In this document: piece after piece, positions 6,294 through 35,439 of the stretch | Numbering within the stretch: the stretch's first letter is position 1 | Layout of the letters: each line of letters starts with the position of its first letter | NCBI GenBank assembly: GCA_001825335.1 | Contig: MHWA01000014.1 | Coordinates: 1 to 35,439 of the forward strand | DNA length: 35,439 nt | Reading direction: 5' to 3' | Source: Candidatus Zambryskibacteria bacterium RIFCSPLOWO2_01_FULL_35_19 | GTDB lineage: Bacteria; Patescibacteriota; Minisyncoccia; Phycocordibacterales; WO2-35-19 | Made by a program: the position numbers and the translations under genes | Notes under the pieces: model-generated | The model's database searches: none | Told to the model about the DNA's origin: nothing | The model's input: the letters and a program-made list of their open reading frames with translations, nothing else

Positions 6294-6315
6294 TTAGTTG
6301 TGGTATAATTTTATT

Positions 6316-6973: not shown

Positions 6974-7068
6974 TGTTAAGGTAAATTTTAATAGTAGTTG
7001 ACAATAATCTTCAATTGTTATTTACTTATAGATAGAAGCCCTCAGGGGTTAATAAAAAGGAGGTATAA

Positions 7069-7233
7069 ATGAAGTGGACGTGGAAGGTTTTTGGACGACT
7101 TTTGTATTATGTCGTCTTGAACATCCTCACAGGAGGAGTGGCTTTTTTTATTTGGCTACATAAAGAAAGGAAAGTAGCCGCAGAGGAGGAAAAGAAATAT
7201 CTCCTGAGAACATTCGGGTCGGGGAGGTACTAG
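7069..7233 (+). CDS. Small membrane protein of 54 aa, absent from the ORF track
   Basis: ATG preceded by aaaggagg at SD distance. Translation: MKWTWKVFGRLLYYVVLNILTGGVAFFIWLHKERKVAAEEEKKYLLRTFGSGRY, with one TM helix. It lies in a GC-richer segment. Confidence 0.5.
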   Translation: MKWTWKVFGRLLYYVVLNILTGGVAFFIWLHKERKVAAEEEKKYLLRTFGSGRY

Positions 7234-7234
7234 T

Positions 7235-7336
7235 ATGGAATACCAAACCATATGGCGGGATTTTTTCGCCGCAGGGGCAATCATCGCCCTGGTATTAATG
7301 TTACTAGAACCTTATCTAAGACCTCCAAAAGAATAG
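7235..7336 (+). CDS. Small membrane peptide of 33 aa, absent from the ORF track
   Basis: ATG lies 1 nt after the previous stop and is preceded by ggggaggt. Translation: MEYQTIWRDFFAAGAIIALVLMLLEPYLRPPKE, with one TM helix. Confidence 0.35.
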   Translation: MEYQTIWRDFFAAGAIIALVLMLLEPYLRPPKE

Positions 7337-7359
7337 TGTCAATGTTCAACCCTTGGCAC

Positions 7360-7389
7360 TTGACAAAAGAATATTAAAGGTGCTATAAT
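7360..7389 (+). promoter_or_regulatory. Near-consensus sigma70-type promoter (TTGACA-18 nt-TATAAT)
   Basis: TTGACA at 7360-7365 and TATAAT at 7384-7389, followed by an aggagga SD and ATG 7409. Confidence 0.6.
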
Positions 7390-7408
7390 TAGTGATAGGA
7401 GGACAAAC

Positions 7409-7792
7409 ATGTTTGAAACACTGAATTCTTTTGTTTTGACCATTCTGGCCGTCATGGCCGTAGTGGTCTACACTGGAAAAGAAATGCAACATCGTGGTAT
7501 TCTGAAGGTCAAACGACCTACCCACGTCCGACGATTTCGTTCCGCAGAGGCGGGACAAGACCTCATTGAATACGCCTTGATGGCCGGCTTTGTGGCAGTT
7601 GCAGCCGGTGCAATTCTGCCGAACGTGGTAGACGATATCAAAATCGTATACCAAAGGATTGGCGTCATAATGGAAACGACGGACGTCAATTTTTTTTCTA
7701 GTGAGATAACAGCAACAAGGATCGCCTGTGCGATCCTGGCAGTCCTGTTTTTGGGGTTGATAGTCGTTCGACGACGAAAAAACCTTGACTAG
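7409..7792 (+). CDS. Flp/Fap-family (type IVb, Tad-type) prepilin-like protein with extra N- and C-terminal hydrophobic segments
   Basis: AEAG|QDLIEYALMAGFVAVAAGAI matches the Flp G-XXXXEY processing motif followed by a hydrophobic helix. The leader is unusually long at 48 aa. The C-terminus is a TM helix plus RRRKNLD. The SD is strong. Confidence 0.6.
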   Translation: MFETLNSFVLTILAVMAVVVYTGKEMQHRGILKVKRPTHVRRFRSAEAGQDLIEYALMAGFVAVAAGAILPNVVDDIKIVYQRIGVIMETTDVNFFSSEITATRIACAILAVLFLGLIVVRRRKNLD

Positions 7793-7855
7793 CTCAACCC
7801 CACGGGTGGCTCGCGGAGCTTAATTAAGCAATGCGAGCCACCAACGAGATGATCC

Positions 7856-7890
7856 GCTCCGTATCAATCCTTGATACGGAGCTATTGTTT
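7856..7890 (+). terminator. Rho-independent terminator
   Basis: gctccgtatcaa-tcc-ttgatacggagc forms a 12-bp stem followed by a T-rich tract. It is preceded by a second hairpin, gtggctcgc...gcgagccac (7807-7841). Confidence 0.6.
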
Positions 7891-7914
7891 ATAAAATTTT
7901 TTCTTCCTAAAAAA

Positions 7915-7933
7915 TACAATGGCGCCCATTGTA
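7915..7933. repeat. REP-like hairpin copy 3 (tacaatgg-cgc-ccattgta), same orientation as copy 2
   Basis: The 19-nt core is identical to copy 2. No T-run follows, so it is not simply a terminator. Confidence 0.65.
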
Positions 7934-8011
7934 AAAAGTATCAAGGTTGAACCTTGACGTTTTGTTTACAAATTTTGCTTTTTTTGTTTTTATAACTTAT
8001 TCTGTATAAAT

Positions 8012-25105: not shown

Positions 25106-25177
25106 GGCCACGTAGCCAAGTAGTAAGGCATTCCTCTGCAAAAGGAATATACGCGAGTGCAATTCTCGCCGTGGCCT
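25106..25177 (+). tRNA. tRNA-Cys (anticodon GCA)
   Basis: Acceptor GGCCACG/CGTGGCC, anticodon arm TTCCT-CTGCAAA-AGGAA, T-arm GCGAG/CTCGC, discriminator T (U73, typical for Cys). Confidence 0.8.
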
Positions 25178-25213
25178 CATTTGTTAAGAAATAAAATAAC
25201 TTGACAAATAATT

Positions 25214-25300
25214 GCTCGGGTGGTGGAATTGGTATACACGAAGGACTTAAAATCCTTTGGTCGCAAGACCTTGCGGGTTCAACTCCCGCCCCGAGCACCA
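25214..25300 (+). tRNA. tRNA-Leu (anticodon TAA), with CCA encoded
   Basis: Acceptor GCTCGGG/CCCGAGC, anticodon arm AAGGA-CTTAAAA-TCCTT, long variable arm, 3' ACCA. Confidence 0.85.
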
Positions 25301-25302
25301 GC

Positions 25303-25375
25303 CCGCTCATAGCTCAGTTGGTAGAGCAGCTCCCTCTTAAGGAGAATGTCCTAGGTTCGAATCCTAGTGAGCGGA
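25303..25375 (+). tRNA. tRNA-Lys (anticodon CTT)
   Basis: Acceptor CCGCTCA/TGAGCGG, D-arm GCTC-AGTTGGTA-GAGC, anticodon loop CTCTTAA, T-arm CTAGG-TTCGAAT-CCTAG. It starts 2 nt after the preceding CCA. Confidence 0.8.
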
Positions 25376-25426
25376 CATGATAGAAAAATATGAACTTGCT
25401 TCATATTATGTTATATTATTTCAGTC

Positions 25427-25507
25427 GGGCAAGTGGTGGAATGGTAGACACGCTAGCCTTAGGAGCTAGTGCCGCAAGGCGTGGAGGTTCAAGTCCTCTC
25501 TTGCCCA
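25427..25507 (+). tRNA. tRNA-Leu (anticodon TAG)
   Basis: Acceptor GGGCAAG/CTTGCCC, anticodon arm CTAGC-CTTAGGA-GCTAG, long variable arm, T-arm GGAGG-TTCAAGT-CCTCT. Confidence 0.85.
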
Positions 25508-25627
25508 CAAAATTACACAATATTTTTTAAAATAATTCTATACTAAACGCTTACTTGTCCCGCCGTAGCTTTATGCAAAGGAGGAGCGTCCTAATATTGT
25601 GTTTGTTGTAATAAATGATATAATGCA

Positions 25628-26058
25628 GTTAGGTTTTCGTTTCGACAGCTACTCTAACTTTTTTAGTTAGGGAGGAAAGTCCGAACATTTACTCGCCCTT
25701 GTGGCGATTCAAACGGTAGCGGGTAATACCCGTCGCCAATTTTGTTCACTAAGAGTGAGTACAAAATTGAGCGTCCCGAGTATATCGAGGGACAATCCTT
25801 CGACAAGCTCAAGATACTCAATTTTGCAACCACTTTCAGTGGGCAAAGTTGGTAGAGTTGCGAACAGAAACGATCCGGTTAAGTCCGGCTGAAACGGCAA
25901 AATACTTACTGGAGTGCAAGGCCGTGTCCACCTTTGTGTGGAAGTGCCGCTCGAGTTTTAGAGTAATCTAAATCCTAGATAAATTGCTGGAAAACCCGCC
26001 TTCGCTTAAAGCTTCGGCGTGGTAAAACAGAATTCGGCTTATGAGAATGAAAACCTAA
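25628..26058 (+). ncRNA. rnpB: RNase P RNA, bacterial type A
   Basis: Universally conserved P4 strands are present: GGAGGAAAGTCCG (25671-25683) and ACAGAATTCGGCTTAT (26027-26042). P1 pairing is aggttttc/gaaaacct. GGTAGCGGGTAATACCCGTCGCC forms the P8/P9-like region. The ends are approximate. Confidence 0.85.
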
Positions 26059-26099: not shown

Positions 26100-26126
26100 A
26101 AAAACCGTCCGCAAGGTCGGTTTTTG
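26100..26126 (+). terminator. Rho-independent terminator after rnpB
   Basis: aaaaaccgtcc-gcaa-ggtcggttttt has a GNRA-type loop and a T5 tail. Confidence 0.6.
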
Positions 26127-26260
26127 CTTTATCCCGTTAGAAATAGGAAATAATATTTCCGCGATTTCTAATGGGATTGCATTTTTAAACAGCTTGTGAT
26201 ATAGTTATAAACGGAAAAGCAGTTCTTTGACTGCAAAAAGATTGAAGGAGGAGCAGAATT

Positions 26261-27445
26261 ATGAATTGGCAACTAATGTTTGCTGTGATGTTGGCGACAC
26301 TTGTTGTTCTCACATTCCCTGCCGTATTAATTCTGTCACCTTTCATTGTTAGAAAGATGGCAGAATTGGAGTGGTTTTTTGCCACAACGGCAGAGGGTCA
26401 AGCACGACCAGTAATCTGGAATAAGAAATTTCGGAAGTTCATCATGAACTATGCTGGACATATATTCCAAGGTGAGCTATTCAAAGATCACCGCAATGCT
26501 TCTTTTAGATTTGATCCGCAAGAAGCTGAGTACTGGGAATTGATCCATGCTAGCCAGTGGCCTCGCAAAAACAAGACCGTTATTGAAAAATTGTTGAGGT
26601 TGTTTGAGGGTGTATATCTGATCGGTGTCCCACCATTTGCCGAAATTCAACGGTATAGGATGACCTGGATAGAGTGGGGTTATCCAAAGAAATCTGATGG
26701 TACGGTTTCTACTACCAAAGCACCAATCTCGCACGATGAGCCAATTAGCCATGTTTTAGTACAAAGTGATGTGTATTTCGTCAAGGTGCTGTCGGCAGAA
26801 ACCAAGGAAGGAATTCCAGTTGATGTCAGTTTTCTATTGACGATTTCCATCACCAATCCCTACAAGGCCCTGTATAGGGTCCAGCACTGGCTAGAGGCTG
26901 TCACAAACCAAACAGAGGGTACCACTAGAGTATACATCGGTACCCAAAACATTAGAGAGTTGTTTGCTCCACCTGAAGGGGATCCCAGTACGGCTCTTCC
27001 TGTTGGCACAATAGGAGCACTTTCTGAAACTTCCTCTGAAGAGCTAGCTAAAGCTTTACACAGCAGGTTGGAAAACTTCAAAGAACGATTTGGGGTTAAT
27101 GTAGAACTGGTGCAAATCCAATCGATTGAACCAGCAGGAGATGCAGCCGCCAAATATAGAGAGCTTCTGACTAGAAAATACGAAGCTGAACAAGAAGCTG
27201 AAAGAGTGCGAATTGCCGCAGATGCAGAGGCATATCGCATTGAAACAGAAGCTAAGGCAAAGCAGAAGGCGGCAGAAATGGTTGTTGGTGCGGTGTCTAG
27301 TATCCCTAACGGTCCTGACATCTTTCACTCACAACAAGTTGGCGCACTACAAAACCTGCGAACCTATGTTGAAGGAGATCGTCAAGGCAAGAGCAAAAAA
27401 GGTAAAAAACCTGTCATTGCCATTCCGACAGATAGTGGAGAATAA
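26261..27445 (+). CDS. SPFH/band-7 (stomatin-prohibitin-flotillin-HflK/C) family membrane protein
   Basis: N-terminal TM helix, SPFH-like core (VDVSFLLTISITNPYKALYRV...) and the characteristic Ala/Glu-rich coiled coil (YEAEQEAERVRIAADAEAYRIETEAKAKQKAAE). The SD gaaggagga is strong. The gene lies in a GC-richer segment. Confidence 0.65.
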   Translation: MNWQLMFAVMLATLVVLTFPAVLILSPFIVRKMAELEWFFATTAEGQARPVIWNKKFRKFIMNYAGHIFQGELFKDHRNASFRFDPQEAEYWELIHASQWPRKNKTVIEKLLRLFEGVYLIGVPPFAEIQRYRMTWIEWGYPKKSDGTVSTTKAPISHDEPISHVLVQSDVYFVKVLSAETKEGIPVDVSFLLTISITNPYKALYRVQHWLEAVTNQTEGTTRVYIGTQNIRELFAPPEGDPSTALPVGTIGALSETSSEELAKALHSRLENFKERFGVNVELVQIQSIEPAGDAAAKYRELLTRKYEAEQEAERVRIAADAEAYRIETEAKAKQKAAEMVVGAVSSIPNGPDIFHSQQVGALQNLRTYVEGDRQGKSKKGKKPVIAIPTDSGE

Positions 27446-27469
27446 TCTTTCTTTACACTTGATTCGTAT

Positions 27470-27495
27470 AGCCGAGGTAACCCCTCGGCTTTTTG
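27470..27495 (+). terminator. Rho-independent terminator
   Basis: agccgagg-taacc-cctcggct followed by TTTT. Confidence 0.65.
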
Positions 27496-27524
27496 TTGAC
27501 TTTATTTTATAAATATGATACAAT
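27496..27524 (+). promoter_or_regulatory. Sigma70-type promoter (TTGACT-17 nt-TACAAT)
   Basis: TTGACT at 27496-27501 and TACAAT at 27519-27524, followed by a gaggagg SD and ATG 27546. Confidence 0.55.
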
Positions 27525-27545
27525 AGATAGAGGAGGCTCCTTATC

Positions 27546-28703
27546 ATGCTTGATCAGATAGTTCCGATTTTGATCGGTTTTTTGTCCATGGTTTTGGTAG
27601 TAGGAGGTATTGTTCTTCTACTCATCAAAAACCTAAAACCCACCTCTTCTTCCGAAAAAAACAAAGACATAAAGACAAAAAAGGAAGAAGAAAGTAGATG
27701 GTCATGGCTGACGCATACTAAGTTGCTGATAGTGTATGGACTAGCTATCTTCAACTTGGTGGTCTGGGCAATGATTCCCTGGTTTTGGGATATACTTGCT
27801 TACAAGTGGTATACTTGGTTAATCTTCAATATTGGGTTTTGGACAATTCTTTATTTTCTCACTGTTAAAGTGAAAGATAAGGATGGAAAAGAAACTGAAT
27901 CAGACCATCCGACGGCCAAAAGATTAGCAAAAATAATCACCGCAATGCTGATATTGGGACTTGCTACCATCACTTGGAAATATTTCCAAGAAAAAGGTTG
28001 GCCTTTTGGAAGTTCTAACGAAGCAACTATCACCCCCGGTTTCTCTCCACAATTGGGAGGGACACAAGCCGGAAGTGTCAGCTATACCCTAGCAGTCCTC
28101 GATGGCTGCGAGACTGGTACCGGCGCTCCCGGAAGCGGTAGGCATTTTCTTGAGGACGGAATAACTCCAGTCCGAAATCCGCAGGATGCCCCTTGGGGCA
28201 CCGGTGCGGTTGGAAAGTGGCAGATTCATATCGGTGATCCGGACGTTAGCGAGGAGCTCAAACTCCTTGAAGCCGAAATGAAACTTGATGGGAGTTTGGG
28301 TCCAGACGAATCGCTCGATGTGGAGCGGAGCGAAGCCCACAATCGGGCAGCCGCCGAGTACTTGTACAAGAAGTACGGCACAGCCCCATGGACCGCTTCA
28401 GTCGCCTGCTGGGGATCATTGGTAACCAGCACTGGGACTCTGATAGTCACATTGGAAGCCCCAGTTGGAGAATGGAGCAACTACTTCTCGTTCCCAAACA
28501 ACCACCGATATGATTTTGGGCGGGTCAGTCCGGAAAAAGAAGAGAAGTATCGCGCAGAATTCACCACCCAAGACGGGAAGGTGATTCTGGGAGAATTTCC
28601 GTCGGAGGAATTTCTCCGCGTACCCAAAGCAATAAAGATGCGGGTGCAATCGTTGGAGAAAGAGCCGGTGATCATCAAAATCACTCTCACTCCGAAAAGT
28701 TAG
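27546..28703 (+). CDS. Polytopic membrane protein with a lysozyme-like (SLT/Rpf-type transglycosylase-like) domain and a C-terminal beta-rich domain
   Basis: About 4-5 TM helices lie in aa 1-150. Then LDGCETGTG...GAVGKWQIHIG...EAHNRAAAEYLYKKYGTAPWTASVACW resembles the CES-G...G(L/V)xQ(I/F)...AWP.C pattern of Rpf/SLT-type domains. Recognition is by eye only. Confidence 0.45.
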   Translation: MLDQIVPILIGFLSMVLVVGGIVLLLIKNLKPTSSSEKNKDIKTKKEEESRWSWLTHTKLLIVYGLAIFNLVVWAMIPWFWDILAYKWYTWLIFNIGFWTILYFLTVKVKDKDGKETESDHPTAKRLAKIITAMLILGLATITWKYFQEKGWPFGSSNEATITPGFSPQLGGTQAGSVSYTLAVLDGCETGTGAPGSGRHFLEDGITPVRNPQDAPWGTGAVGKWQIHIGDPDVSEELKLLEAEMKLDGSLGPDESLDVERSEAHNRAAAEYLYKKYGTAPWTASVACWGSLVTSTGTLIVTLEAPVGEWSNYFSFPNNHRYDFGRVSPEKEEKYRAEFTTQDGKVILGEFPSEEFLRVPKAIKMRVQSLEKEPVIIKITLTPKS

Positions 28704-28739
28704 GAGGGCATTATGCGACAGCACAGAGGTCCTCCGTAG

Positions 28740-28790
28740 CCCCATCGAGTAAAAGGCGTAAGTCTTTTGCTCCGATGGGGTTTTTGTTTG
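28740..28790 (+). terminator. Long hairpin terminator
   Basis: Outer stem is ccccatcg...cgatgggg with an inner stem aaaag/ctttt, followed by TTTTTGTTTG. Confidence 0.55.
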
Positions 28791-28799
28791 TAAAAAATA

Positions 28800-29078
28800 T
28801 TAACAAAAAAATAGTTCACAGGGAATATCAAAAGTAGCCAAAACAATTCTTAAAATGCCATAAACAGAAAACATTATAAAAAGCCCAATTACTCCATACA
28901 TAACATTGGTCTTTTTTTTATCTAAATCATTACCATCGGCTCCCCAAATCATCTGCACTATCCCATAAAATAAATATATAGTGGCAACAACAAAACCAAG
29001 CACTATGAGTGGATTTAATATCAAAATAGCTATCTGACCTAAAAGATCTGTTACAGCTGTTATTGTAGCGGCTAACAT
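28800..29078 (-). CDS. VirB2/TrbC-like small pilin paralog 1, with no signal peptide
   Basis: 92 aa with a two-helix hairpin: hydrophobic helix, GADGNDLDKKKTN loop, then VMYGVIGLFIMFSVYGIL. The architecture matches the six upstream paralogs. Confidence 0.6.
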   Translation of the reverse strand: MLAATITAVTDLLGQIAILILNPLIVLGFVVATIYLFYGIVQMIWGADGNDLDKKKTNVMYGVIGLFIMFSVYGILRIVLATFDIPCELFFC

Positions 29079-29142
29079 AACTACATTTTATTTTTAATAC
29101 TCAAAAATTGCAAGATATAAAAGTTTATATCTCTTCTTAAAA

Positions 29143-29190
29143 AAAATACAAAAATAAAACCGCCTTAAAGCAGTTTTATTTTTGTATTTT
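29143..29190. terminator. 18-bp perfect AT-rich hairpin inside the pilin array, an internal terminator or attenuator
   Basis: aaaatacaaaaataaaac-cgccttaaagca-gttttatttttgtatttt. It lies between the stop of paralog 2 (29200) and the start of paralog 1 (29078). Confidence 0.5.
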
Positions 29191-29199
29191 AGAGCAAGT

Positions 29200-29553
29200 T
29201 TATTCAACTTCATTAGGAATAAGATTGCCAACATCAGGAGCACCTGTATCTGTGCCTATTCCTACATTTTCACCGATAAATCGAACCAATCCCCAGACAG
29301 AGGCCATCACAAAGAGAGCCACCACTCCCCAAATCATTGTCTTTTTGGCTTGTTCCTTGTCATGATCTGCGCCAAAAATGTATTTAACCAAACCATAAAA
29401 GAATCCAAGAATAGCGAGGGCAAAAACAATTGGTATGATTATATCCACAATACCACCCAAATCTTCAATTAAACCTCTTAGTGCAGTTAAACCTTGAGCA
29501 AAAGAGACAAGAGGGAAAGCCAAAGCTCCAACAATTAACGCTAATTTTTTCAT
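29200..29553 (-). CDS. VirB2/TrbC-like small pilin paralog 2
   Basis: Signal peptide ending SFAQ|G, then IIPIVFALAILGFFYGLVKYIFGADHDKEQAKKTMIWGVVALFVMASVWGLV. Confidence 0.65.
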   Translation of the reverse strand: MKKLALIVGALAFPLVSFAQGLTALRGLIEDLGGIVDIIIPIVFALAILGFFYGLVKYIFGADHDKEQAKKTMIWGVVALFVMASVWGLVRFIGENVGIGTDTGAPDVGNLIPNEVE

Positions 29554-29666
29554 ATAATTTTAAATTAATAATTAATAATTAAATAAACGACCATTTTTAA
29601 TTTGCTTTATAATAATATCATTTTTATACTTAATTTCAACCAAAAGTAATCCACAACGTAATATAA

Positions 29667-30065
29667 TTAAGGCGAAGCGGCATTCCAGGCTTCAGTATTA
29701 TCAGCTCCACCATCCCCACCAATAGTTGGTATAGGTATAGAATTTGGTCCAGAGCCACCCAAAAGCTCACCTTGAAGGAAAGCGACGAGTCCCCAGACAG
29801 AGGCCATCACAAAGAGAGCTACTATACCCCACACCATTACTTTTTTGCCTTCATCTTTTTCACTACCAGCAGAGCGTATATACTTGGCAATACCCCAGAA
29901 AAAGAAAAGTAGGGCTAGAATAAAAGCAAGCGGGACCAGCATATCTGTCACAATATATTTAGCTTCCCAAAATAATTTTCCAGTCTCCTTTAGTTGGGCA
30001 AAAGAAAAAACGGGAAATAAAACAAATACGGAAGATAAAATGATTTTATAAATTTTATTTAACAT
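29667..30065 (-). CDS. VirB2/TrbC-like small pilin paralog 3
   Basis: Signal peptide ending SFAQ|L, then WGIAKYIRSAGSEKDEGKKVMVWGIVALFVMASVWGLV. It shares a 30-nt identical tract with paralog 2. Confidence 0.65.
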   Translation of the reverse strand: MLNKIYKIILSSVFVLFPVFSFAQLKETGKLFWEAKYIVTDMLVPLAFILALLFFFWGIAKYIRSAGSEKDEGKKVMVWGIVALFVMASVWGLVAFLQGELLGGSGPNSIPIPTIGGDGGADNTEAWNAASP

Positions 30066-30083
30066 AAGTTTTAAATATTAATA

Positions 30084-30443
30084 TTAATAAATTTTAGTGG
30101 TAATTATATCTCTGGGAATTGCTGGATTTTCAACTTCTGGAATACCAAGCTCACTTTGGATAAAGGTAATTATACCCCAAATTGAAAAAGCTACAAAGAG
30201 ACCGACGATACCCCAAATCATAATCTTCTTTCCTTCTTCGGCTCCTTTTTCATCACCAGCACTGGTCCTTATGTATTTGGCTACTCCCCAGAAAAAATAA
30301 AAGAGAGCTAAAGCAAAAGCAAGTGGTATAAGCACTTCGCTAACTATGCCAGAGGCCGCATCTATAAGGTCAATAACTCCAGCGGCAGATGCAAATAATG
30401 GAAAAAAGAGAAGTATTACTATTATTTTTGATATTTTTATCAT
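30084..30443 (-). CDS. VirB2/TrbC-like small pilin paralog 4
   Basis: Signal peptide ending ASAA|G, then WGVAKYIRTSAGDEKGAEEGKKIMIWGIVGLFVAFSIWGII. Confidence 0.65.
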   Translation of the reverse strand: MIKISKIIVILLFFPLFASAAGVIDLIDAASGIVSEVLIPLAFALALFYFFWGVAKYIRTSAGDEKGAEEGKKIMIWGIVGLFVAFSIWGIITFIQSELGIPEVENPAIPRDIITTKIY

Positions 30444-30446
30444 ATA

Positions 30447-30719
30447 TTAAAAATGAATTTGAGGAATAATCACTCCTCCTCTAAAACCAAATTCACCCAT
30501 AGTAAAAGAAATTATACCCCAAATACTTACCAAAATAAGTAATCCTACAATCCCCCAGATAATTAAATTTTTGCTATCTTTTATTTCTTTTTCACTACCG
30601 GCAGATTTTATAAACTTGACTATACCCAAAACAAATACAAGAAAGGCCACCGTTCCTAAAAATGGTATTATTCTAAGCCCTATATTTATAAACAAACTTA
30701 TAATCGCTGTTAAATCCAT
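30447..30719 (-). CDS. VirB2/TrbC-like small pilin paralog 5
   Basis: LGIVKFIKSAGSEKEIKDSKNLIIWGIVGLLILVSIWGII. It is separated from its neighbours by only 3-nt and 2-nt gaps. Confidence 0.6.
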   Translation of the reverse strand: MDLTAIISLFINIGLRIIPFLGTVAFLVFVLGIVKFIKSAGSEKEIKDSKNLIIWGIVGLLILVSIWGIISFTMGEFGFRGGVIIPQIHF

Positions 30720-30721
30720 TT

Positions 30722-31156
30722 TTATACTCTTAATTGACTAATAGTTTTGCCGATGGCTTGCGATATAATCCAAGCACCTAAAAGTATGGCCGCACCTATA
30801 ACCGCCCAGAGTAGAGCATCCTTTGCTTTAGTTATTTGTGCCGCATCACCTCTAGCCGTTACAAAAAGAAATCCAGCATACATAACCATTACCACAGCTA
30901 CCACACTACCGATAGGTATTAAAATATCTTTAATAATGGTGGTTATCAAACCTTCAATGGTATTTTCTTTAAATGGATTTTTTATTTCTATTGATGAATT
31001 TATTGGGGGGACAGAACCAGTAGTCCCTCCACCATCGCCTCCCGTATCACCTCCACCATCGCCATTTGCGGCCAACACAAACATCGGCATTACTAAAACT
31101 ATGACAACTACAATTGGAATTAAAATTTTAAAAAAACTTTTTGAAAATTTAAACAT
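30722..31156 (-). CDS. VirB2/TrbC-like small pilin paralog 6, with a Gly/Asp-rich N-terminal extension
   Basis: Signal/TM segment, then GDGGGDTGGDGGGTTG, then YAGFLFVTARGDAAQITKAKDALLWAVIGAAILLGAWII. Confidence 0.6.
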   Translation of the reverse strand: MFKFSKSFFKILIPIVVVIVLVMPMFVLAANGDGGGDTGGDGGGTTGSVPPINSSIEIKNPFKENTIEGLITTIIKDILIPIGSVVAVVMVMYAGFLFVTARGDAAQITKAKDALLWAVIGAAILLGAWIISQAIGKTISQLRV

Positions 31157-31181
31157 AATTTTATATATAAAAATTGATTAA

Positions 31182-31589
31182 TTATTTGACTCCTTGGACT
31201 GGCACTGCATCTTTAAAACCATTTTTATCACTCAAAAGAGCATTTGTGATAGTGGTTACAATAATCCAAGCTGATAAAATAAAAACAAAACCAATAAAAA
31301 CTTTCTTCATTGTATTTATAGACTCTGATCTTTTGCCTGGATTATCGCCATGTATCATCATCTTTATACCAGCCCAAGCAAAAACACCCGCCGCTATCGG
31401 GACTGAAATCTTTATAATCCAATCTATTACATTATTTATCAGTATCAATAAATCATCATAACCGCATTCGTCACTAAGACCACCATCGCAAGGTATAAAA
31501 CCACCTTGAGCAGAAACTAAAAAAGGTATCATAATAAAAAGAAAAAATAACGAAAAAATTAAAATATTTTTGATTAATGGTTTTTTCAT
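31182..31589 (-). CDS. VirB2/TrbC-like small pilin paralog 7, with a Cys-containing N-terminal region
   Basis: Signal peptide ending VSAQ|G, then CDGGLSDEC, then WAGIKMMIHGDNPGKRSESINTMKKVFIGFVFILSAWII. Its start overlaps the upstream SBP stop by 4 nt. Confidence 0.6.
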   Translation of the reverse strand: MKKPLIKNILIFSLFFLFIMIPFLVSAQGGFIPCDGGLSDECGYDDLLILINNVIDWIIKISVPIAAGVFAWAGIKMMIHGDNPGKRSESINTMKKVFIGFVFILSAWIIVTTITNALLSDKNGFKDAVPVQGVK

Positions 31590-32890
31590 TTTAATAATAA
31601 GGTAGAGAGTTCTCTATGAGCTCGATTGACAGCTTCTCCCGTCCTAGCTCTACCGCTTGTGATTGATTCTATCATATTTCTAAAGACGATATCACTTTCT
31701 CCTTTGGACGGATCAAGCCAAGCTTTGGCTCGGATAGCACTATCATAGAAAACACTCTCATATGAATTGATTTGTTTCTGTCCTAAAAGATCTCTTCTTG
31801 CTGGTGGCAATCTTAAAGCTTTACTAAAAGCCATCGCCCCTTCTTTGCCAGTTAAAATAGAAATAACAGAAAAAGCGGCGCTTATCTTTTTAGAAGCTTT
31901 GGTGATAGCAAAAGAATTAAAATTAGCATAAGAGACATTAACTCCGCCCTCCCTAGAAATAGGCACTGATGCCACATCAAAATTTAGATTTGGATTTTTA
32001 ATTTGAAGATTGCTTATTTCATTAGCAAAACCAAAATACAAAGCCAAGTCACCTCCTAAAAAGTAGTTGGTAGAATTATTTAAAGAACGATTCCAAGAGT
32101 ATGAGGATTTGGCTGGATTGCTAAATTCGGTATAAAAATTGACTGCCGCTTCAGCTGGAATGGTTGATTTGTTGAAAGAGTCAGCAAAGACGCTTAAAGC
32201 TTTGTTGTTACTGCCCCAGATAGTAACAGGCGTCCCCGCTTGCATTGCCAAGTTTATAACAATTTCTTTGGCATGAGAGATGTTTCCAAATTCACCAAAA
32301 GCTACCAAGCTTCTTGATATATTTAAAGCACCATCTTTTTTAGATATCTGATTGGCTAAATTATAAAACTCATCCCAATATTTTGGAGGTTCAGTGATTT
32401 TAACTTCAGTAAAGATAGACCTGTTCCAATACATAACCAGTGGGTTGACCGTTATGGGCAAAGCTAAAAATCCTTCTGGCGCCATATAAATTTCAGCTCC
32501 TTCTATAAAAGAGTCTTTAAATTGCCTAGTAGTAAAAGCTTCATACGGAATAGCAAATATTTTGTTGCGGTGCTTGAGTATCTTTTCACTTCCCAACATA
32601 AAGATATCTGGACCATTACCAGAAGCTAAAGCTTCTATAAAACTAGCATCAAATTCTTCTTCAGTTTTCTGAACATATTGAAGAGTAAATTCTTTGCTTT
32701 GGTGAAGAGACGTTGCTTTGATAGCTTCATTGAAAGTGGTTTGAGGCATAGTGCCCCATATCTCTATTGAGATTGCATTTCCAAGACTCCCTCTATAAGA
32801 AGAAAATATTATCACTCCTACGATTAGAAATACTCCAAAAATCCCAGTCAAAACCAATTGAAACTTTGTCATACTTATATTATATAACAT
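31586..32890 (-). CDS. Membrane-anchored extracellular solute-binding protein (ABC SBP family 1-like), orphan
   Basis: N-terminal TM anchor followed by an SBP_bac_1-like layout (IEIWGTMP..., GNGPDIFMLGS, LPITVNPLVMYWNR, YWDEF). No permease or ATPase genes are adjacent. An alternative start is at 32872. Confidence 0.65.
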   Translation of the reverse strand: MLYNISMTKFQLVLTGIFGVFLIVGVIIFSSYRGSLGNAISIEIWGTMPQTTFNEAIKATSLHQSKEFTLQYVQKTEEEFDASFIEALASGNGPDIFMLGSEKILKHRNKIFAIPYEAFTTRQFKDSFIEGAEIYMAPEGFLALPITVNPLVMYWNRSIFTEVKITEPPKYWDEFYNLANQISKKDGALNISRSLVAFGEFGNISHAKEIVINLAMQAGTPVTIWGSNNKALSVFADSFNKSTIPAEAAVNFYTEFSNPAKSSYSWNRSLNNSTNYFLGGDLALYFGFANEISNLQIKNPNLNFDVASVPISREGGVNVSYANFNSFAITKASKKISAAFSVISILTGKEGAMAFSKALRLPPARRDLLGQKQINSYESVFYDSAIRAKAWLDPSKGESDIVFRNMIESITSGRARTGEAVNRAHRELSTLLLK

Positions 32891-32977: not shown

Positions 32978-35439
32978 TTAAAGACAGATAAAGGAAGCGA
33001 TGGAGTCGCCGGCACGAAGCTTCATAATACGAACACCTTGAGTAGAACGTCCGAGGGTTGGTATTTCAGAAAGACTTAATCTGATAACTTGACTCTTTTT
33101 TGACATAGCTACTGCTTCTTCTTCTAAGCCAGTCACCACTGTAGAAGATATTATTTCGCCTGTTTTAGCAGTAACATTGCTGGTCTTTATACCAGAGCCA
33201 CCTCTCTTTTGAATCTTATATTCAGTGATGATGGTTTTCTTGCCATAACCATTGGTCCCTAATGTAAGAAGGGCTGCATCTTTTTCAGCTTCTTTGGGGA
33301 TAGCATGAGCGCCAATCACTTTGTCACCTTTTTTTAATTTTATTATTCTTACTCCTGCGGCGGTTCGGCCCATTTCTCTGACATCTCCTTCTTTAAACCT
33401 TATTGATTGGCCTTTAGAGGTAACTACTATGCCAGAATCTCCCTTAACCACTCCAGAAACAGAGATTAACTTATCTTTTTCGCCAAGTTTGATAGCGATA
33501 ATACCATTCGCTCTAACATCGTGAAAACTAGAAGCGCTAACTTTTTTGCCAATACCACCTTCGGTAATCATCATCAATGAAAGGTCTTTATCTTCTTTCA
33601 AGTTTTTAGGCATCGGCAAAATAGAAGTAACTCTTTCACCTTCAGAAAGAGAAATAAAGTTCATAATAGATTTACCACGAGTGGCTCTTTTGCCTTCTGG
33701 AAGTTCATACATTTTTATTTGATAAGCTTTGCCAAGGTCAGTAAAGAAGATGAGATCAGAATGAGTGTTGGCAGTCAAAAAATTGATAACAAAATCTTCT
33801 TCTTTGGTATCTAAATCAATCACCCCAACTCCCCCGCGTTTTTGTTTTTTGTATTCGTCTGGACTGGTCCTTTTAACATAACCGCCAGCAGTCAATATGA
33901 GAGTATTTTCTTCATCAGCGATTAAATCTTCAACAGATAGGATTTTAACTCCACCTTTAATCACTTTGGTCCTTCTATCATCTCCATATTTTTCAGAAAT
34001 ATCTGAAAGCTCTTTTTTGATAATTGAAAGTATTTTCTTAGGGTTAGCCAAGATAGTTTTTAGCTCGCCTATCAATTTTTGAACTTCATTTAACTCATCT
34101 TCTATTTTTTGTCTTTCAAGACCAGCCAATTTTTGCAGACGCATCTCTAAAATAGCGTTAGCTTGAAGTTCGGAAAACTTGAAAGTTTTCATCAGGTTGG
34201 CTCGCGCCTCTTCTACGTCTTTTGATTTCTTGATTAATTTAATAATTTCGTCTATATGGTCAAGCGCCTTTTTAAGTCCAAGCAAGATATGCTCCCTAGC
34301 TTCAGCTTCACGCAAATCAAATTCGGTCCTTCTTCTAACTACAATTTGTCTATGTTTTACAAATTCTTCTAAAATGCTTTTTAAAGAGAGAGTTTGAGGC
34401 ACTCCATCAACTAAAGCTACTAGATTCAAATGAAAAGCATCTTCAAGTTGAGTGTGTTTATAAAGATAATTTAAAACTTTTTGGGGATGGCTACCATTTT
34501 TAAGGTCAATAGCTATTCTGATATCTTTGGTAGATTCATCTCTGATGCCTTTGATACCATCAATTTTTTTCTCTCGGACTAAGTCAGCAATTTTTATTAT
34601 GAGCTCCGCTTTGTTTACTCTATAAGGAATAGAGCTAATTATTATTTGAGTGGTATTTTTATCTTCAACTATGTCTGCCACACCGCGAGCAACGATACCG
34701 CCTCGTCCGGTAGCATAAGCGTGATGAATATCTTTAGTATTGAAAATAACGCCTCCAAGCGGAAAGTCTGGTCCTTGCACAAATTGCAACAAATCTTCAG
34801 TAGTGGCCTCTTTATTGTCTATGAGAAAAGAAGTGGCATCTACTACTTCGCGAAGGTTATGAGGAGGAATATTGGTTGCCATACCGACAGCAATACCTAA
34901 AGTGCCATTGAGTAAAAGTTGCGGAGCGACAGCTGGTAAAACTGATGGTTCTTTTTTGGTTGCGTCATAGTTTGGCACCCAATCCACTGTCTCTTTGTTT
35001 ATGTCACGCATAAGTTCACTAGCCACCTTACTCATTTTAGCTTCGGTATAACGCATTGCCGCTGCATTGTCTCCATCGACAGAACCAAAGTTGCCTTGAC
35101 CGATAACAAGTGGATATCTGATGGCAAAGTCTTGAGCCATTTTAACCATCGCTTCATAAGCAGAAGTATCACCGTGAGGGTGATAATTACCTAACACTTC
35201 TCCGACTACTGCAGCTGATTTTCTAGTCTTAGCAGATGATGAAAGACCCATAGTATGCATAGCATAAAGAATACGACGGTGAACAGGTTTTAAACCATCA
35301 CGAACATCAGGTAAAGCTCTGTCAGTGATGACAGACATAGCATAGTCAATAAAAGATTTTTTCATTTCGCTCACGATAGAGCGCGAAATAACGCCCTTTT
35401 GAGCGCCTATATCCTCAATATTTCCAGAATTATTTTCTT
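32978..35439 (-). CDS. gyrA: DNA gyrase subunit A, 5' partial, running off the window
   Basis: [33 protein letters not shown], the AAMRYTE active-site Tyr region and C-terminal beta-pinwheel repeats. The frame stays open upstream of the ORF-track start (GTG 35374) to the window edge (…[22 protein letters not shown]…). Confidence 0.95.

What the first reader, a model, noticed from the sequence alone, without database searches (positions are those of the whole stretch)
26128..28790. GC-rich island next to the tRNA cluster and rnpB encoding an SPFH/band-7 protein and a polytopic membrane protein with a lysozyme-like domain
From about 26130 to 28790 the composition is clearly different. Individual 60-nt lines reach about 43-63% GC by hand count, compared with 20-35% in the flanks. 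Codons shift toward G/C-ending, and long spurious antisense ORFs appear, which is typical of GC-rich DNA. The segment sits directly after four tRNAs and rnpB, which is a classic insertion hotspot. However, it has no integrase and no obvious att repeat.

The island contains two independently promoted and terminated genes.
- Gene 1 is a 394-aa SPFH/band-7 protein.
- Gene 2 is a 385-aa protein with 4-5 TM helices, a domain resembling Rpf/SLT transglycosylases (CETG ... GKWQI ... APW..C) and a C-terminal beta-rich domain.

SPFH proteins are classically paired with NfeD-type membrane partners that have a C-terminal beta-barrel. Here the partner position is occupied by a putative cell-wall glycosidase, a pairing I do not recognise as described. 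A muramidase-like protein lying convergent to a VirB2-like pilin array is also reminiscent of VirB1. This is a candidate for a horizontally acquired envelope-remodelling module. It may be relevant to episymbiont-host contact.
Basis: partly seen in the sequence, partly recalled or inferred. Interest (0 to 1): 0.75.

Follow-up and report, generated by a model that had tools for sequence, protein, structure and literature searches.

The report
Hypervariable SPFH–muramidase pair beside pilin array
The GC-rich stretch is real, but it is not an inserted island: it is a conserved pair of genes (a stomatin-like scaffold and a membrane-anchored lysozyme-like enzyme) that sits next to an array of VirB2-like pilin genes in many Patescibacteria and has been swapped for very different versions even between near-identical genomes.

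Summary
**Observation: confirmed.** Window 26131-28790 has 45.0% GC. Other 2.6-kb windows have 35.1 ± 1.6%. It is also the strongest tetranucleotide outlier. Ten independent assemblies run unbroken across both borders.

**The two genes**
- Gene 1 is a stomatin-like SPFH protein.
- Gene 2 has four TM helices, a domain of the lysozyme-like superfamily (remote evidence only) and a C-terminal beta-sandwich.

**Interpretation: partly right.**
- There is no integrase and no att repeat.
- The pair sits in the same place, followed by about 7 convergent VirB2-like pilin genes, SBP and gyrA, in every relative examined. That includes 4 of 4 distant gene-2 relatives picked for a context check.
- So it is a resident part of a locus found so far only in Patescibacteria, not an insertion.

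**Separate history.**
- A close relative has housekeeping proteins 96-99% identical and gyrA 95.8% identical in DNA.
- Its SPFH protein is only 38% identical and its gene 2 57%. DNA similarity stops at 26130.
- SPFH and the three parts of gene 2 each group the lineages differently, so the locus is a mosaic.
- The GC3 excess of the pair recurs in every lineage and rises with the genome's own GC.

**Function (inferred).** A scaffolded muralytic enzyme that serves the pilin apparatus in a VirB1-like role. I found no description of this pairing in the papers searched.

The parts
25106..25508 (+). tRNA cluster: Cys-GCA, Leu-TAA, Lys-CTT, Leu-TAG. This is left-hand context and is rearranged in the CG10 relative.
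   Evidence: ARAGORN and Rfam. In L060/L062 tRNA-Leu(TAA) is inverted, extra genes are inserted, and similarity to the window ends at 25415.
25633..26058 (+). RNase P RNA (class A, divergent, with an insertion of about 113 nt). It is the conserved left neighbour of the pair.
   Evidence: cmscan gives E = 3.5e-17 and 60 bits, below the gathering score of 100. rnpB also lies next to the SPFH gene in L003, L004, L006 and L007, there on the opposite strand.
26100..26127 (+). 28-nt terminator-type hairpin AAAAACCGTCCGCAAGGTCGGTTTTTGC. It is the last conserved element before the variable segment. Identity to L002 ends at 26130.
   Evidence: Alignment with L002. There are exact copies in 11 metagenome contigs. 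In the ten where a module gene was detected (SPFH HMM hit or gene 2), it lies downstream of the hairpin. L038 shows only a gene-2 fragment about 1.4 kb downstream.
26131..26177 (+). Inverted repeat specific to this window (arms 26131-26144 and 26164-26177). It is followed by a promoter-like TTGCAT (26177-26182), a 17-nt spacer and TGaTATAGT (-10 hexamer at 26200-26205).
   Evidence: Read directly from the sequence. The repeat is absent from L002, whereas the -10 region and the leader motif TCTTTGACT are shared.
26261..27445 (+). Gene 1: stomatin-like SPFH/Band-7 protein of 394 aa. It has an N-terminal TM helix, an SPFH core at residues 117-323 and an Ala/Glu-rich C-terminal helix.
   Evidence: Pfam Band_7 E = 1.2e-12. 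A family profile hits the P. horikoshii stomatins 2rpb/3bk6 (E = 2e-8 and 3e-7) and human stomatin cages. GC3 is 0.395.
27470..27524 (+). Intergenic terminator-like hairpin (27470-27490) followed by a promoter-like TTGACT-17-TACAAT with an upstream TG (27496-27524).
   Evidence: Consensus scan and sequence. No expression data.
27546..27995 (+). Gene 2, N-terminal part (residues 1-150): four TM helices with two Lys-rich loops that are probably cytoplasmic.
   Evidence: AlphaFold2 model built on 124 sequences. Helices at 2-29, 58-76, 88-106 and 122-150, with pLDDT above 90 over 60-150. Topology is inferred from the positive-inside rule.
28059..28433 (+). Gene 2, middle domain (residues 172-296): lysozyme-like superfamily. 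Glu189 is invariant, in C-E-T/S-G at the end of a helix. Other motifs are G-x-W/Y-Q-I and PW..S..CW.
   Evidence: E189, G223 and W282 are invariant or nearly so in 124 sequences. 14 of 45 members hit PF06737 and 9 of 45 hit PF18896. The PDB profile search returns C-type lysozymes and EtgA at E = 0.016-1. hhalign to phage LyZ1 gives 99.1% probability, and LyZ1 hits only lysozyme-like Pfam families. This is the only part of the cassette with DNA similarity to L001 (86% over 28027-28413).
28434..28703 (+). Gene 2, C-terminal beta-sandwich (residues 297-385) and stop codon. It is the most variable extracellular part.
   Evidence: AF2 strands between 299 and 383. Foldseek matches to cupin/jelly-roll-type sandwiches are weak (E about 1e-3, TM 0.37-0.5 on the target). 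Pairwise identity across lineages is 16-68%.
28800..31589 (-). Array of seven VirB2-like pilin genes (T4SS_pilin/TrbC), convergent with gene 2.
   Evidence: Pfam PF18895 and PF04956. The same array follows the pair in L001, L003, L006, L008, L009, L054 and L057. Pilin 3 (29667-30065) is only 51% identical to its L001 counterpart, against 93-97% for pilins 1, 2, 4 and 5.
31586..32890 (-). Extracellular solute-binding protein that ends the pilin operon. It is the conserved right-hand flank.
   Evidence: Pfam SBP_bac_1/8. It is 99% identical in protein to L001 and present in L003, L006 and L057.
32978..35374 (-). gyrA. It serves as the conserved right-hand anchor and as the yardstick for background divergence.
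   Evidence: Pfam. It is 95.8% identical in DNA to the CG10 relative L059.

Best explanation
**What it is (shown).**
- The GC-rich segment is a resident two-gene module of a locus found so far only in Patescibacteria. Most of the named genomes belong to Parcubacteria-type groups.
- The locus reads: (rnpB) - SPFH - gene 2 - about 7 convergent VirB2-like pilins - SBP - gyrA.
- Gene 1 is a stomatin-like SPFH scaffold.
- Gene 2 is a four-TM membrane protein. It displays a lysozyme-like (muralytic) domain and a variable beta-sandwich, probably on the outer face.
- The module is not an integrated island. It is a hypervariable, recombination-shuffled cassette held at a fixed place.
- Whole alleles, or parts of them, are replaced by very different versions from the same gene pool, even between genomes that are about 95% identical in DNA elsewhere.

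**How it probably works (inferred).**
- The muralytic domain opens peptidoglycan locally so that the pilin-based apparatus can cross a wall. That wall may be the cell's own or the host cell's. This is the role VirB1 plays in type IV secretion.
- The SPFH oligomer corrals or gates the enzyme in the membrane, much as stomatin works with its operon partner and HflK/C with FtsH.
- The variable beta-sandwich would set target specificity.
- The GC3 excess is best explained by GC-biased repair at a recombination hotspot, or by selection. Import from a GC-rich donor fits it poorly.
For: **Fixed position, all in Patescibacteria**
- The order SPFH -> gene 2 -> pilin array is seen in L001-L010, L039, L041 and L042 (L043 has gene 2 and the pilins, but its upstream gene is not recognisably SPFH). 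It is also seen at 4 of 4 distant gene-2 relatives picked for a context check (L054-L057).
- Nearly all of the 25 GTDB loci found with the SPFH profile carry Patescibacteria-type names.
- Distant SPFH relatives (25-31% identity) still sit beside convergent pilin arrays. Their downstream partner is a small TM protein without the lysozyme domain.

**Separate history**
- The window's IF-2, ClpB, RelA and SBP proteins are 96-99% identical to those of the CG10 MAG. gyrA is 95.8% identical in DNA.
- L001 is 98-100% identical in DNA to that MAG where the two overlap. Its SPFH is 38% and its gene 2 57% identical to the window's.
- There is no DNA similarity over 26131-28026 or 28414-28655.

**Mosaicism**
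- The proteins in the SPFH position fall into at least 5 classes, with 26% identity or less between classes.
- The N-terminal, middle and C-terminal parts of gene 2 each cluster the lineages differently. Spearman correlation with the SPFH matrix is about 0.

**GC3**
- The pair exceeds its neighbours by +0.11 to +0.27 in 11 lineages whose baseline GC3 runs from 0.25 to 0.45.

**Protein identities**
- SPFH.
- Lysozyme-like domain.

**Literature**
- PMC12102498 reports 441 VirB2-like pilin arrays in Patescibacteria. It notes that most genomes with such pilins lack a recognisable VirB1, and that other glycosidases may fill that role.
Against: - No curated lysozyme family is hit at threshold by the window's own protein.
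- The top 50 Foldseek matches in PDB and BFVD are all to the C-terminal sandwich or the TM region, and none to a lysozyme. So the fold of the middle domain is not confirmed structurally.
- No virB4 or other T4SS machinery gene lies in this 35-kb window. The link to a secretion apparatus rests on adjacency alone.
- The charge distribution around its single TM helix suggests the SPFH domain is cytoplasmic. That makes its extreme variability hard to attribute to surface selection.
- I expected the SPFH allele to co-vary with the TM part of gene 2 if they interact. It does not (Spearman 0.08).
- There are no expression or biochemical data.
- L001 and the CG10 MAG used as the genome-wide yardstick are linked only through a 3.3-kb overlap.
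Confidence: 0.6

Rival explanations
1. This is the first reader's view: a genomic island recently acquired from a foreign donor with higher GC, inserted at the tRNA/rnpB hotspot and not yet ameliorated.
For: - The compositional break is sharp, and it coincides with the end of DNA similarity to a close relative at 26130.
- The tRNA cluster is rearranged, with inserted genes, in the CG10 relative.
- The segment clearly has a different history from its flanks.
Against: - The pair sits at the same place in every relative. That includes lineages whose flanking genes are only 64-85% identical.
- There is no integrase and no flanking direct repeat.
- Homologues of both genes were found only in Patescibacteria.
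- The GC3 excess recurs in all lineages and tracks each genome's baseline. An import with a fixed donor composition would not behave that way.
Confidence: 0.07
2. The pair diverged rapidly in place without exchange. Very strong diversifying selection acts on two envelope genes, and the GC excess reflects amino-acid composition or codon selection for expression.
For: - GC1 and GC2 are also raised (0.54/0.40 and 0.50/0.42, against about 0.45/0.33 elsewhere).
- The pair evolves faster than its flanks in all comparisons.
- The promoter and leader motifs are partly shared with L002.
Against: - 38% protein identity next to genes that are 96-99% identical cannot arise by point mutation over the same time span.
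- The borders of similarity are abrupt.
- The window's SPFH is far closer to those of distant lineages (59-64% to L005, L006, L008 and L009) than to that of its near relative L001 (37%).
- The parts of gene 2 have conflicting nearest neighbours.
Confidence: 0.08
3. The pair is an offensive or nutritional tool, not a pilus-assembly factor. The membrane-anchored muramidase attacks the host cell's wall at the contact site, with the beta-sandwich as the host-specific binding module. SPFH keeps it inactive or clustered until contact.
For: - The extracellular beta-sandwich is the most variable part of gene 2 (16-68% identity).
- The lysozyme-like core is also used by a phage as a small stand-alone 'lyZ1' protein.
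- Lysozyme and peptidase homologues next to virB4 are reported as essential for epibiotic growth of S. epibionticum, as cited in PMC12102498.
Against: - A four-TM anchor keeps the enzyme on the producer's own membrane, with a linker of only about 25 residues. Reaching another cell's wall would need very close contact.
- There are no experimental data.
- This reading overlaps with the best explanation rather than excluding it.
Confidence: 0.15
4. The pair is a housekeeping wall-remodelling or division pair (Rpf-like or autolysin-like) with no functional tie to the pilins. The adjacency would be an inherited accident of gene order.
For: - The closest Pfam signals are to the Rpf-type Transglycosylase-like domain.
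- The two genes have promoter- and terminator-like signals of their own and are convergent with the pilin operon, not co-transcribed with it.
Against: - The right-hand neighbour (the pilin array) is kept even where the left-hand neighbour changes: rnpB in the window, L003 and L006, but LOG/pterin genes in L055 and L057.
- Distant SPFH relatives with different partners still sit beside pilin arrays.
- A housekeeping autolysin is unlikely to exist in allele classes that are 26% identical or less.
Confidence: 0.1

Closest known systems
Stomatin-NfeD operons (P. horikoshii PH1511/PH1510, E. coli QmcA-YbbJ, B. subtilis FloT/YuaG-YuaF)
   Same: - Both pair an SPFH protein of the stomatin branch with an adjacent gene for a polytopic membrane protein that ends in a small beta-rich soluble domain.
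- The best solved matches of gene 1 are the P. horikoshii stomatins.
- In distant relatives the partner is just TM helices plus a short C-terminal domain, and the genes often overlap.
   Different: - Gene 2 has no NfeD (PF01957) signal, and neither do 124 family members.
- Its C-terminal domain resembles jelly-roll/cupin-type sandwiches, not the NfeD OB fold.
- It carries a lysozyme-like domain that no NfeD has.
- Its soluble domains are probably outside the cell.
- The pair is hypervariable and tied to a pilin array.
VirB1-type specialised lytic transglycosylases of type III/IV secretion systems (VirB1, IagB/IpgF, EtgA; TraG/PrgK/CD419 in monoderms)
   Same: - A lysozyme-like enzyme is encoded next to genes for a secretion-type pilus.
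- It has a single invariant Glu at the end of a helix in an E-S/T motif, followed by a G-x-x-Q-I motif.
- EtgA is among the few PDB sequences the domain profile reaches.
- The literature notes that most Patescibacteria with VirB2-like pilins lack a detectable VirB1.
   Different: - No threshold-level match to SLT, VirB1 or any CONJScan-type family. The Pfam SLT hit is a single member at E = 0.18.
- It is anchored by four TM helices instead of being secreted or carrying one signal anchor.
- It is fused to a variable beta-sandwich and paired with SPFH.
- No virB4, virB6 or virD4 gene lies nearby in this window.
Rpf-type Transglycosylase-like domain (PF06737) and SLT_3 lysozyme-like domain (PF18896)
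   Same: - These are the only Pfam families hit repeatedly by the gene-2 middle domain: 14 and 9 of 45 members.
- Shared features are the C-E-S-G-G start, the aromatic-Q-F/I motif and the closing W..C.
   Different: - All hits are below the gathering scores (best E = 3.6e-4).
- The window's own sequence hits neither family.
- No Rpf structure was reached by the profile in PDB.
- The domain has an insertion of 20-40 residues between the motifs that is absent from Rpf.
VirB2-like pilin arrays of Patescibacteria (PMC12102498; the essential array in S. epibionticum ML1)
   Same: - The window's seven-gene array of divergent PF18895/PF04956 pilins matches the arrays of 2-11 pilin genes described there.
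- Variation among the paralogues is also described there.
   Different: - That study does not mention an SPFH gene or this lysozyme-like membrane protein beside the arrays ('band' has 0 occurrences; SPFH has 0 occurrences in the full-text count).
[quoted passage not shown]
Variable surface-protein loci replaced by homologous recombination between conserved flanks (for example capsule or O-antigen loci and pilin cassettes). This comparison rests on general knowledge.
   Same: A fixed chromosomal position with conserved anchors on both sides (rnpB with its terminator, and pilin 1). Between them lie unrelated or mosaic alleles shared across lineages.
   Different: The variable unit here includes a presumably cytoplasmic scaffold protein. 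The alleles are richer in GC than the flanks rather than poorer. No silent donor copies lie nearby.

Membership tests
SPFH / Band-7 superfamily (gene 1) | Match to the SPFH domain profile above the curated threshold | tested here: met
   PF01145 gives 48.7 bits against a cut-off of 23.6, E = 1.2e-12, over residues 117-323. 18 of 19 homologues carry a precomputed PF01145.
SPFH / Band-7 superfamily (gene 1) | N-terminal membrane anchor plus a C-terminal coiled-coil/Ala-Glu-rich oligomerisation helix | tested here: inconclusive
   A hydrophobic stretch at residues 5-29 and an Ala/Glu-rich stretch at about 295-345 are visible in the sequence. No structure prediction was run for gene 1. Oligomerisation was not tested.
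Stomatin branch of SPFH (gene 1) | Closest solved relatives are stomatins rather than HflK/C, flotillin or prohibitin | tested here: met
   The family profile hits 2rpb, 8gn9 and 3bk6 (P. horikoshii stomatins, E = 2e-8 to 3e-7) and human stomatin (about 1e-3). No HflK/C or flotillin is hit at E <= 0.01. The NCBIfam HflK hit reaches only 14 bits against a cut-off of 159.
NfeD family (gene 2 as the classical SPFH partner) | NfeD profile match (PF01957) and a C-terminal OB-fold domain | tested here: not met
   There is no NfeD hit for gene 2 at E <= 1 or among the top families of 124 relatives. Foldseek matches of the C-terminal domain are to cupin/jelly-roll-type sandwiches, not OB folds.
Lysozyme-like superfamily (gene 2, residues 172-296) | Profile similarity to lysozyme-like families | tested here: inconclusive
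   - All signals are below threshold but consistent. 14 of 45 members hit PF06737 and 9 of 45 hit PF18896, and the remaining families, which include SLT and C-type Lys, are hit by one member each.
- 10 of 12 PDB hits are lysozymes or EtgA, at E = 0.016-1.1.
- hhalign to hen lysozyme gives 45% probability over 24 columns.
- Phage LyZ1 is a clear homologue (99.1%) and hits only SLT_3, SLT, Lys and Transglycosylas, apart from one stray weak hit (DUF3000, E 0.077).
Lysozyme-like superfamily (gene 2, residues 172-296) | Invariant catalytic Glu at the C-terminal end of the first helix, followed by a small beta-sheet and a helical lobe | tested here: met
   E189 is invariant in 124 sequences, and S/T190 is at least 90% conserved. 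In the AF2 model (pLDDT about 96) a helix at 178-190 ends at E189. Short strands follow at 201-228, then helices at 232-248, 263-277 and 280-293.
Lysozyme-like superfamily (gene 2, residues 172-296) | Structural match of the domain to solved lysozymes or lytic transglycosylases | tested here: inconclusive
   Only whole-protein searches were possible. The 50 matches listed in PDB and BFVD are all to the beta-sandwich or the TM part. A domain-only search could not be run.
Lysozyme-like superfamily (gene 2, residues 172-296) | Peptidoglycan-cleaving activity | not testable with these tools
   Needs biochemistry.
VirB1-type T4SS-associated lytic transglycosylase | SLT/VirB1 profile match | tested here: not met
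   There is no SLT (PF01464) hit for the window's protein. One of 45 family members hits it at E = 0.18.
VirB1-type T4SS-associated lytic transglycosylase | Encoded within or next to a T4SS gene cluster | tested here: inconclusive
   It is always adjacent to the VirB2-like pilin array. No virB4, virB6 or virD4 gene lies in the 35-kb window.
Integrative genomic island | Integrase/recombinase, flanking direct repeats, and presence/absence polymorphism at the site | tested here: not met
   There is no integrase and no flanking repeat. The site is occupied in every relative examined.

The most novel reading that the evidence does not exclude
The SPFH-muramidase pair is the missing wall-opening and assembly module of the patescibacterial VirB2-like pilus. 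It is also a strain-level host-specificity determinant. Its alleles, and the domains within gene 2, are exchanged among co-existing lineages by recombination between conserved anchors (the rnpB terminator on one side, pilin 1 or the lysozyme core on the other). That exchange is frequent enough to leave a lineage-independent GC3 excess through GC-biased gene conversion. If so, this would be an SPFH cage regulating a peptidoglycan hydrolase, and a recombination-hotspot signature in ultra-small episymbiont genomes. I found no description of either in the papers searched.
Probability: 0.25. Interest if true: 0.8.

Novelty: new variant of a known kind. Interest (0 to 1): 0.62.

Why it matters
- VirB2-like pilin arrays are widespread in Patescibacteria. 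One such array is reported as essential for epibiotic growth of a cultivated member (PMC12102498). How these pilins cross the wall is unknown, and that study states that most of these genomes lack a recognisable VirB1.
- The gene-2 family has about 300 clusters at 50% identity and no Pfam model. In every context examined it lies directly beside such an array. That makes it a concrete, testable candidate for the wall-opening role.
- Its constant pairing with a stomatin-like protein suggests a client for a bacterial SPFH scaffold that the papers I searched do not describe.
- The locus is also a clean natural example of allele replacement in organisms with tiny genomes. Genomes that are 96-99% identical in housekeeping proteins carry SPFH genes that are 38% identical.
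- The GC3 excess appears in every lineage examined. This offers a way to test whether recombination-linked GC bias operates in these bacteria.

Tried and rejected
1. **Direct family assignment of gene 2.** Pfam, NCBIfam, a PDB sequence search, PADLOC and PHROGs gave nothing usable for the window's own protein.
2. **Fold searches.** I searched two AF2 models (pLDDT 64.6 with 7 sequences, 85.6 with 124). The top matches were only to the C-terminal sandwich and the TM region. Weak matches to vitamin-K carboxylase and VTC TM regions were dismissed as TM noise (rmsd 7-10 Å).
3. **Full-length profile against PDB.** It was dominated by TM proteins. A domain-only alignment (A3) was needed.
4. **Scans of GTDB genomes with the gene-2 alignments.**
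   - A3 had no stretch conserved enough to search with.
   - The A1 patterns matched 32 stretches, none confirmed.
   - The SPFH alignment worked.
5. **Co-adaptation of SPFH with the TM half of gene 2.** Rejected: Spearman 0.08.
6. **Is the protein in the SPFH position in L003 an SPFH at all?**
   - BLASTP and hhalign to the A4 profile are not significant.
   - Homology holds only transitively. L004's protein hits the A4 HMM at E = 1.9e-12 and is 33% identical to L003's.
   - L043's protein in that position matches nothing, so 'always SPFH' is not proven for every allele class.
7. **NfeD reading of gene 2.** Rejected.
8. **Defence-system reading.** There are no PADLOC hits.
9. **tblastn of a family member against plasmids.** No match.
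10. **Antisense ORFs inside the segment** (for example 26860-27321). I treated these as by-products of GC richness and did not study them further.
11. **GC3 excess as a general property of SPFH-pilin loci.** Rejected. It is weak or absent where the partner lacks the lysozyme domain.

Full report

Yes. The window as a whole has 36% GC.

Composition of the segment 26131-28790:
- It has 45.0% GC. 2.6-kb windows outside the region have 35.1 ± 1.6%, with a maximum of 38.6%.
- Its tetranucleotide distance from the whole window is 0.0355, against 0.0172 ± 0.0029 elsewhere.
- The sliding window 26201-28800 ranks first on both measures.

The shift also shows at third codon positions:
- GC3 is 0.395 for ORF 26261-27445 and 0.495 for ORF 27546-28703. 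It reaches 0.56 in the 3' half of the latter.
- The other 30 ORFs have 0.266 ± 0.057.

The neighbours are as described:
- Four tRNAs lie at 25106-25508.
- A full-length class-A RNase P RNA lies at 25633-26058. It scores below Rfam's gathering threshold (60 against 100 bits, E = 3.5e-17) because of a large insertion.

Other checks:
- No att-like repeat brackets the segment, and the window has no integrase.
- Ten independent assemblies from JGI, ENA and NCBI (L044-L053) are 99.3-99.99% identical to the window. They run unbroken across both borders, so mis-assembly is excluded.
- A terminator-like hairpin (27470-27490) and a promoter-like site (27496-27524) separate the two genes.

**2. What the two proteins are**

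*Gene 1.*
- It hits Band_7/SPFH above threshold (E = 1.2e-12).
- A profile of its family reaches the Pyrococcus horikoshii stomatins and the human stomatin cages in PDB. It does not reach HflK/C or flotillin. So it belongs to the stomatin branch.

*Gene 2: direct searches.*
- It gives nothing in Pfam, NCBIfam, PDB sequences, PADLOC or PHROGs.
- It has only seven word-indexed homologues.
- An exhaustive profile search found 297 cluster representatives.

*Gene 2: structure model.* With 124 of those sequences AlphaFold2 gives a confident model (pLDDT 85.6). It has:
- four TM helices (residues 2-150);
- a disordered linker;
- an alpha+beta domain (about 172-296);
- a beta-sandwich (297-385).

*Gene 2: middle domain.*
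- Glu189 is invariant, lies at the end of a helix and is followed by S/T (C-E-S/T-G). A G-x-W/Y-Q-I motif and a closing PW..S..CW follow.
- Of 45 domain sequences scanned alone, 14 hit the Rpf-type Transglycosylase-like family and 9 hit SLT_3. All are below threshold. Every other family is hit by one member only.
- The domain profile's PDB hits are almost all C-type lysozymes and the T3SS hydrolase EtgA (E = 0.016-1).
- A 148-aa phage protein annotated 'lyZ1' (MW202577.1) is an unambiguous homologue of the domain (hhalign 99.1%, E = 4e-19). It hits SLT_3, SLT, C-type Lys and Transglycosylase-like, plus one stray weak hit (DUF3000).
- I conclude that the domain belongs to the lysozyme-like superfamily but to no curated family.
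- The structural test stayed inconclusive. Whole-protein Foldseek lists were filled by the C-terminal sandwich, which weakly resembles cupin/jelly-roll folds, and by TM noise.

*Gene 2: topology and NfeD.*
- Two Lys-rich loops probably face the cytoplasm, which would put the lysozyme-like and sandwich domains outside. This is inferred from the positive-inside rule.
- Gene 2 is not an NfeD protein.

**3. Context: not an island but a fixed module**

The order SPFH -> gene 2 -> convergent array of VirB2-like pilins (PF18895/PF04956) -> SBP (-> gyrA) recurs widely:
- in L001/L002 (a Crystal Geyser MAG named Harrisonbacteria), and in L003, L004 and L005;
- in L006/L010 (Zambryskiibacteriota PATE-6), and in L008 and L009;
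- in metagenome contigs L039 and L041-L043.

I then picked four distant members of the gene-2 family (E = 1e-42 down to 8e-11) and looked up their contexts. All four lie between a gene in the SPFH position and a pilin array.

Neighbours further out:
- rnpB is the left neighbour in the window, L002, L003, L004, L006 and L007, sometimes inverted.
- In more distant lineages the left neighbour changes while the pilin-SBP-gyrA side is kept.

A GTDB scan with the SPFH profile returned 25 loci. All but one carry Patescibacteria-type names; the exception, L032, is titled a Pacearchaeota archaeon MAG.
- SPFH relatives at 25-31% identity still sit next to convergent pilin arrays.
- Their downstream partner, which often overlaps the SPFH gene, is a small TM protein without the lysozyme domain.
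- One such partner weakly matches the gene-2 C-terminal domain (E = 0.0017).
- So the link between SPFH and the pilin array is older than gene 2 in its present form.

**4. The segment nevertheless has its own history**

Background divergence from the close relative:
- The window's IF-2, ClpB-like, RelA/SpoT and SBP proteins fall in the same 90%-identity clusters as those of a Crystal Geyser MAG (GCA_002771075.1). They are 96.2-98.7% identical.
- gyrA is 95.8% identical in DNA.
- L001 overlaps that MAG's pilin contig at 98-100% DNA identity.

Divergence at the pair:
- L001's SPFH is only 38% identical to the window's, and its gene 2 57%.
- DNA similarity to L002 is 99% through the rnpB 3' end and a terminator hairpin.
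- Similarity reappears only over the lysozyme-like core (28027-28413, 86%). It is lost again over the sandwich and resumes at 28656 (85-94%).
- Pilin 3 has also been replaced (51%, against 93-97% for pilins 1, 2, 4 and 5).

Mosaicism across twelve lineages:
- The proteins in the SPFH position form at least five classes, with 26% identity or less between classes.
- The window's allele groups with L005, L006, L008 and L009 (59-71% among these five; the window itself 60-64%), not with its near relative L001.
- The TM, middle and C-terminal parts of gene 2 each group the lineages differently. None correlates with the SPFH matrix (Spearman about 0).
- This is a mosaic produced by exchange within a shared gene pool. 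It is not divergence in place, and it is not import from outside the clade.

A possible anchor for exchange:
- The 28-nt hairpin at 26100-26127 is exactly conserved in 11 metagenome contigs whose genes are otherwise only 65-85% identical.
- Wherever an SPFH-type gene or gene 2 was detected, it lies downstream of the hairpin.
- Together with rnpB, the hairpin could act as a recombination anchor. This is an inference.

**5. The GC excess**

- In all eleven lineages checked that carry the lysozyme-type gene 2, the pair exceeds its neighbours in GC3 by 0.11-0.27. This holds whether the neighbours are at about 0.25 (window, L001) or about 0.45 (L055).
- Loci with the lysozyme-less partner show little or no excess.
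- An import that had not yet ameliorated would not keep a constant offset across lineages of different base composition.
- The pattern fits a process specific to this locus. That could be GC-biased gene conversion at a recombination hotspot, which would be consistent with the mosaicism. It could also be selection on codons or mRNA. I could not separate these.

**6. How it probably works (inferred)**

- The lysozyme-like domain is held at the membrane surface by four TM helices. It would cut peptidoglycan locally for the adjacent pilin system, as VirB1-type enzymes do.
- The published survey of patescibacterial T4SS reports 441 VirB2-like arrays. It notes that most such genomes lack a detectable VirB1 and that other glycosidases may substitute (PMC12102498). 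It does not mention SPFH.
- The stomatin-like protein would assemble a ring or cage that confines or gates the enzyme.
- The variable sandwich would provide target binding.

Weak points:
- The window contains no virB4 or virB6 gene.
- The SPFH domain looks cytoplasmic yet is the most variable gene of the locus.
- SPFH alleles do not co-vary with the TM half of gene 2.

**7. Novelty and verdict**

- Each component belongs to a known kind: SPFH-partner operons, secretion-associated muramidases, and patescibacterial pilin arrays.
- The combination appears in none of the papers I searched. That covers the unannotated gene-2 family, its strict placement beside pilin arrays, and its behaviour as a GC-rich, recombination-shuffled cassette.
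- I rate it a new variant of a known kind, with interest 0.62.
- The evolutionary description is well supported. The mechanism is a hypothesis.

Noticed in passing
window 7001-8000 (ORF 7409-7792) and 6298-6936: A second GC-rich patch (0.40-0.45). It holds a 127-aa ORF with GC3 0.50 and no Pfam or Rfam match. It lies directly after an IS200-like Y1 transposase gene. A related Y1_Tnp gene sits between gyrA and SBP in the CG10 relative L059.
   Followed up: partly
window 25633-26058, with an inverted repeat at 25736-25852: The RNase P RNA scores below Rfam's gathering threshold (60 against 100 bits). It carries an insertion of about 113 nt that forms a hairpin with 57-nt arms, and L002 lacks most of this insertion. 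rnpB is on the opposite strand relative to the SPFH gene in L003, L004, L006 and L007.
   Followed up: partly
window 25191-25415; L060 8600-10340; L062: In the CG10 relative (96% DNA identity up to 25191) tRNA-Leu(TAA) is inverted. A 246-aa gene, plus an HNH gene in some contigs, is inserted. Similarity to the window ends after tRNA-Lys at 25415. The tRNA cluster is therefore a rearrangement hotspot among close relatives.
   Followed up: partly
window 29667-30065 (pilin 3); also 30722-31589 (pilins 6 and 7): Pilin 3 is only 51% identical to its L001 counterpart, and pilins 6 and 7 are 78-81%. Pilins 1, 2, 4 and 5 are 93-97% and SBP is 99%. So the pilin array is mosaic as well.
   Followed up: partly
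window 26100-26127: A 28-nt terminator-type hairpin is conserved exactly in 11 metagenome contigs whose neighbouring genes are only about 65-85% identical to the window. Where an SPFH-type gene or gene 2 was detected, it lies downstream of the hairpin.
   Followed up: partly
L053 3659-4854: One otherwise 99.3%-identical assembly has gene 2 split into ORFs of 252 and 126 aa. This is either a frameshift variant or an assembly error.
   Followed up: no
L006 1-7692: In the Zambryskiibacteriota genome a run of GC-rich genes (GC3 0.47-0.75) lies beside a large serine recombinase, upstream of the tRNA-rnpB-SPFH locus. Unlike the finding itself, this looks like a true integrated element.
   Followed up: no
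L063 1973-2419 (phage MW202577.1 'lyZ1'): An uncultured siphovirus from a freshwater spring encodes a 148-aa stand-alone homologue of the gene-2 lysozyme-like domain. The domain family is thus shared between Patescibacteria and at least one phage.
   Followed up: yes
window 287-2719 and 17782-20496: There are two ClpB-like AAA+ genes in one 35-kb window. The 904-aa copy is named 'type VI secretion system ATPase TssH' in an NCBI relative. The 810-aa copy shows Pfam hits only for the second AAA module.
   Followed up: no
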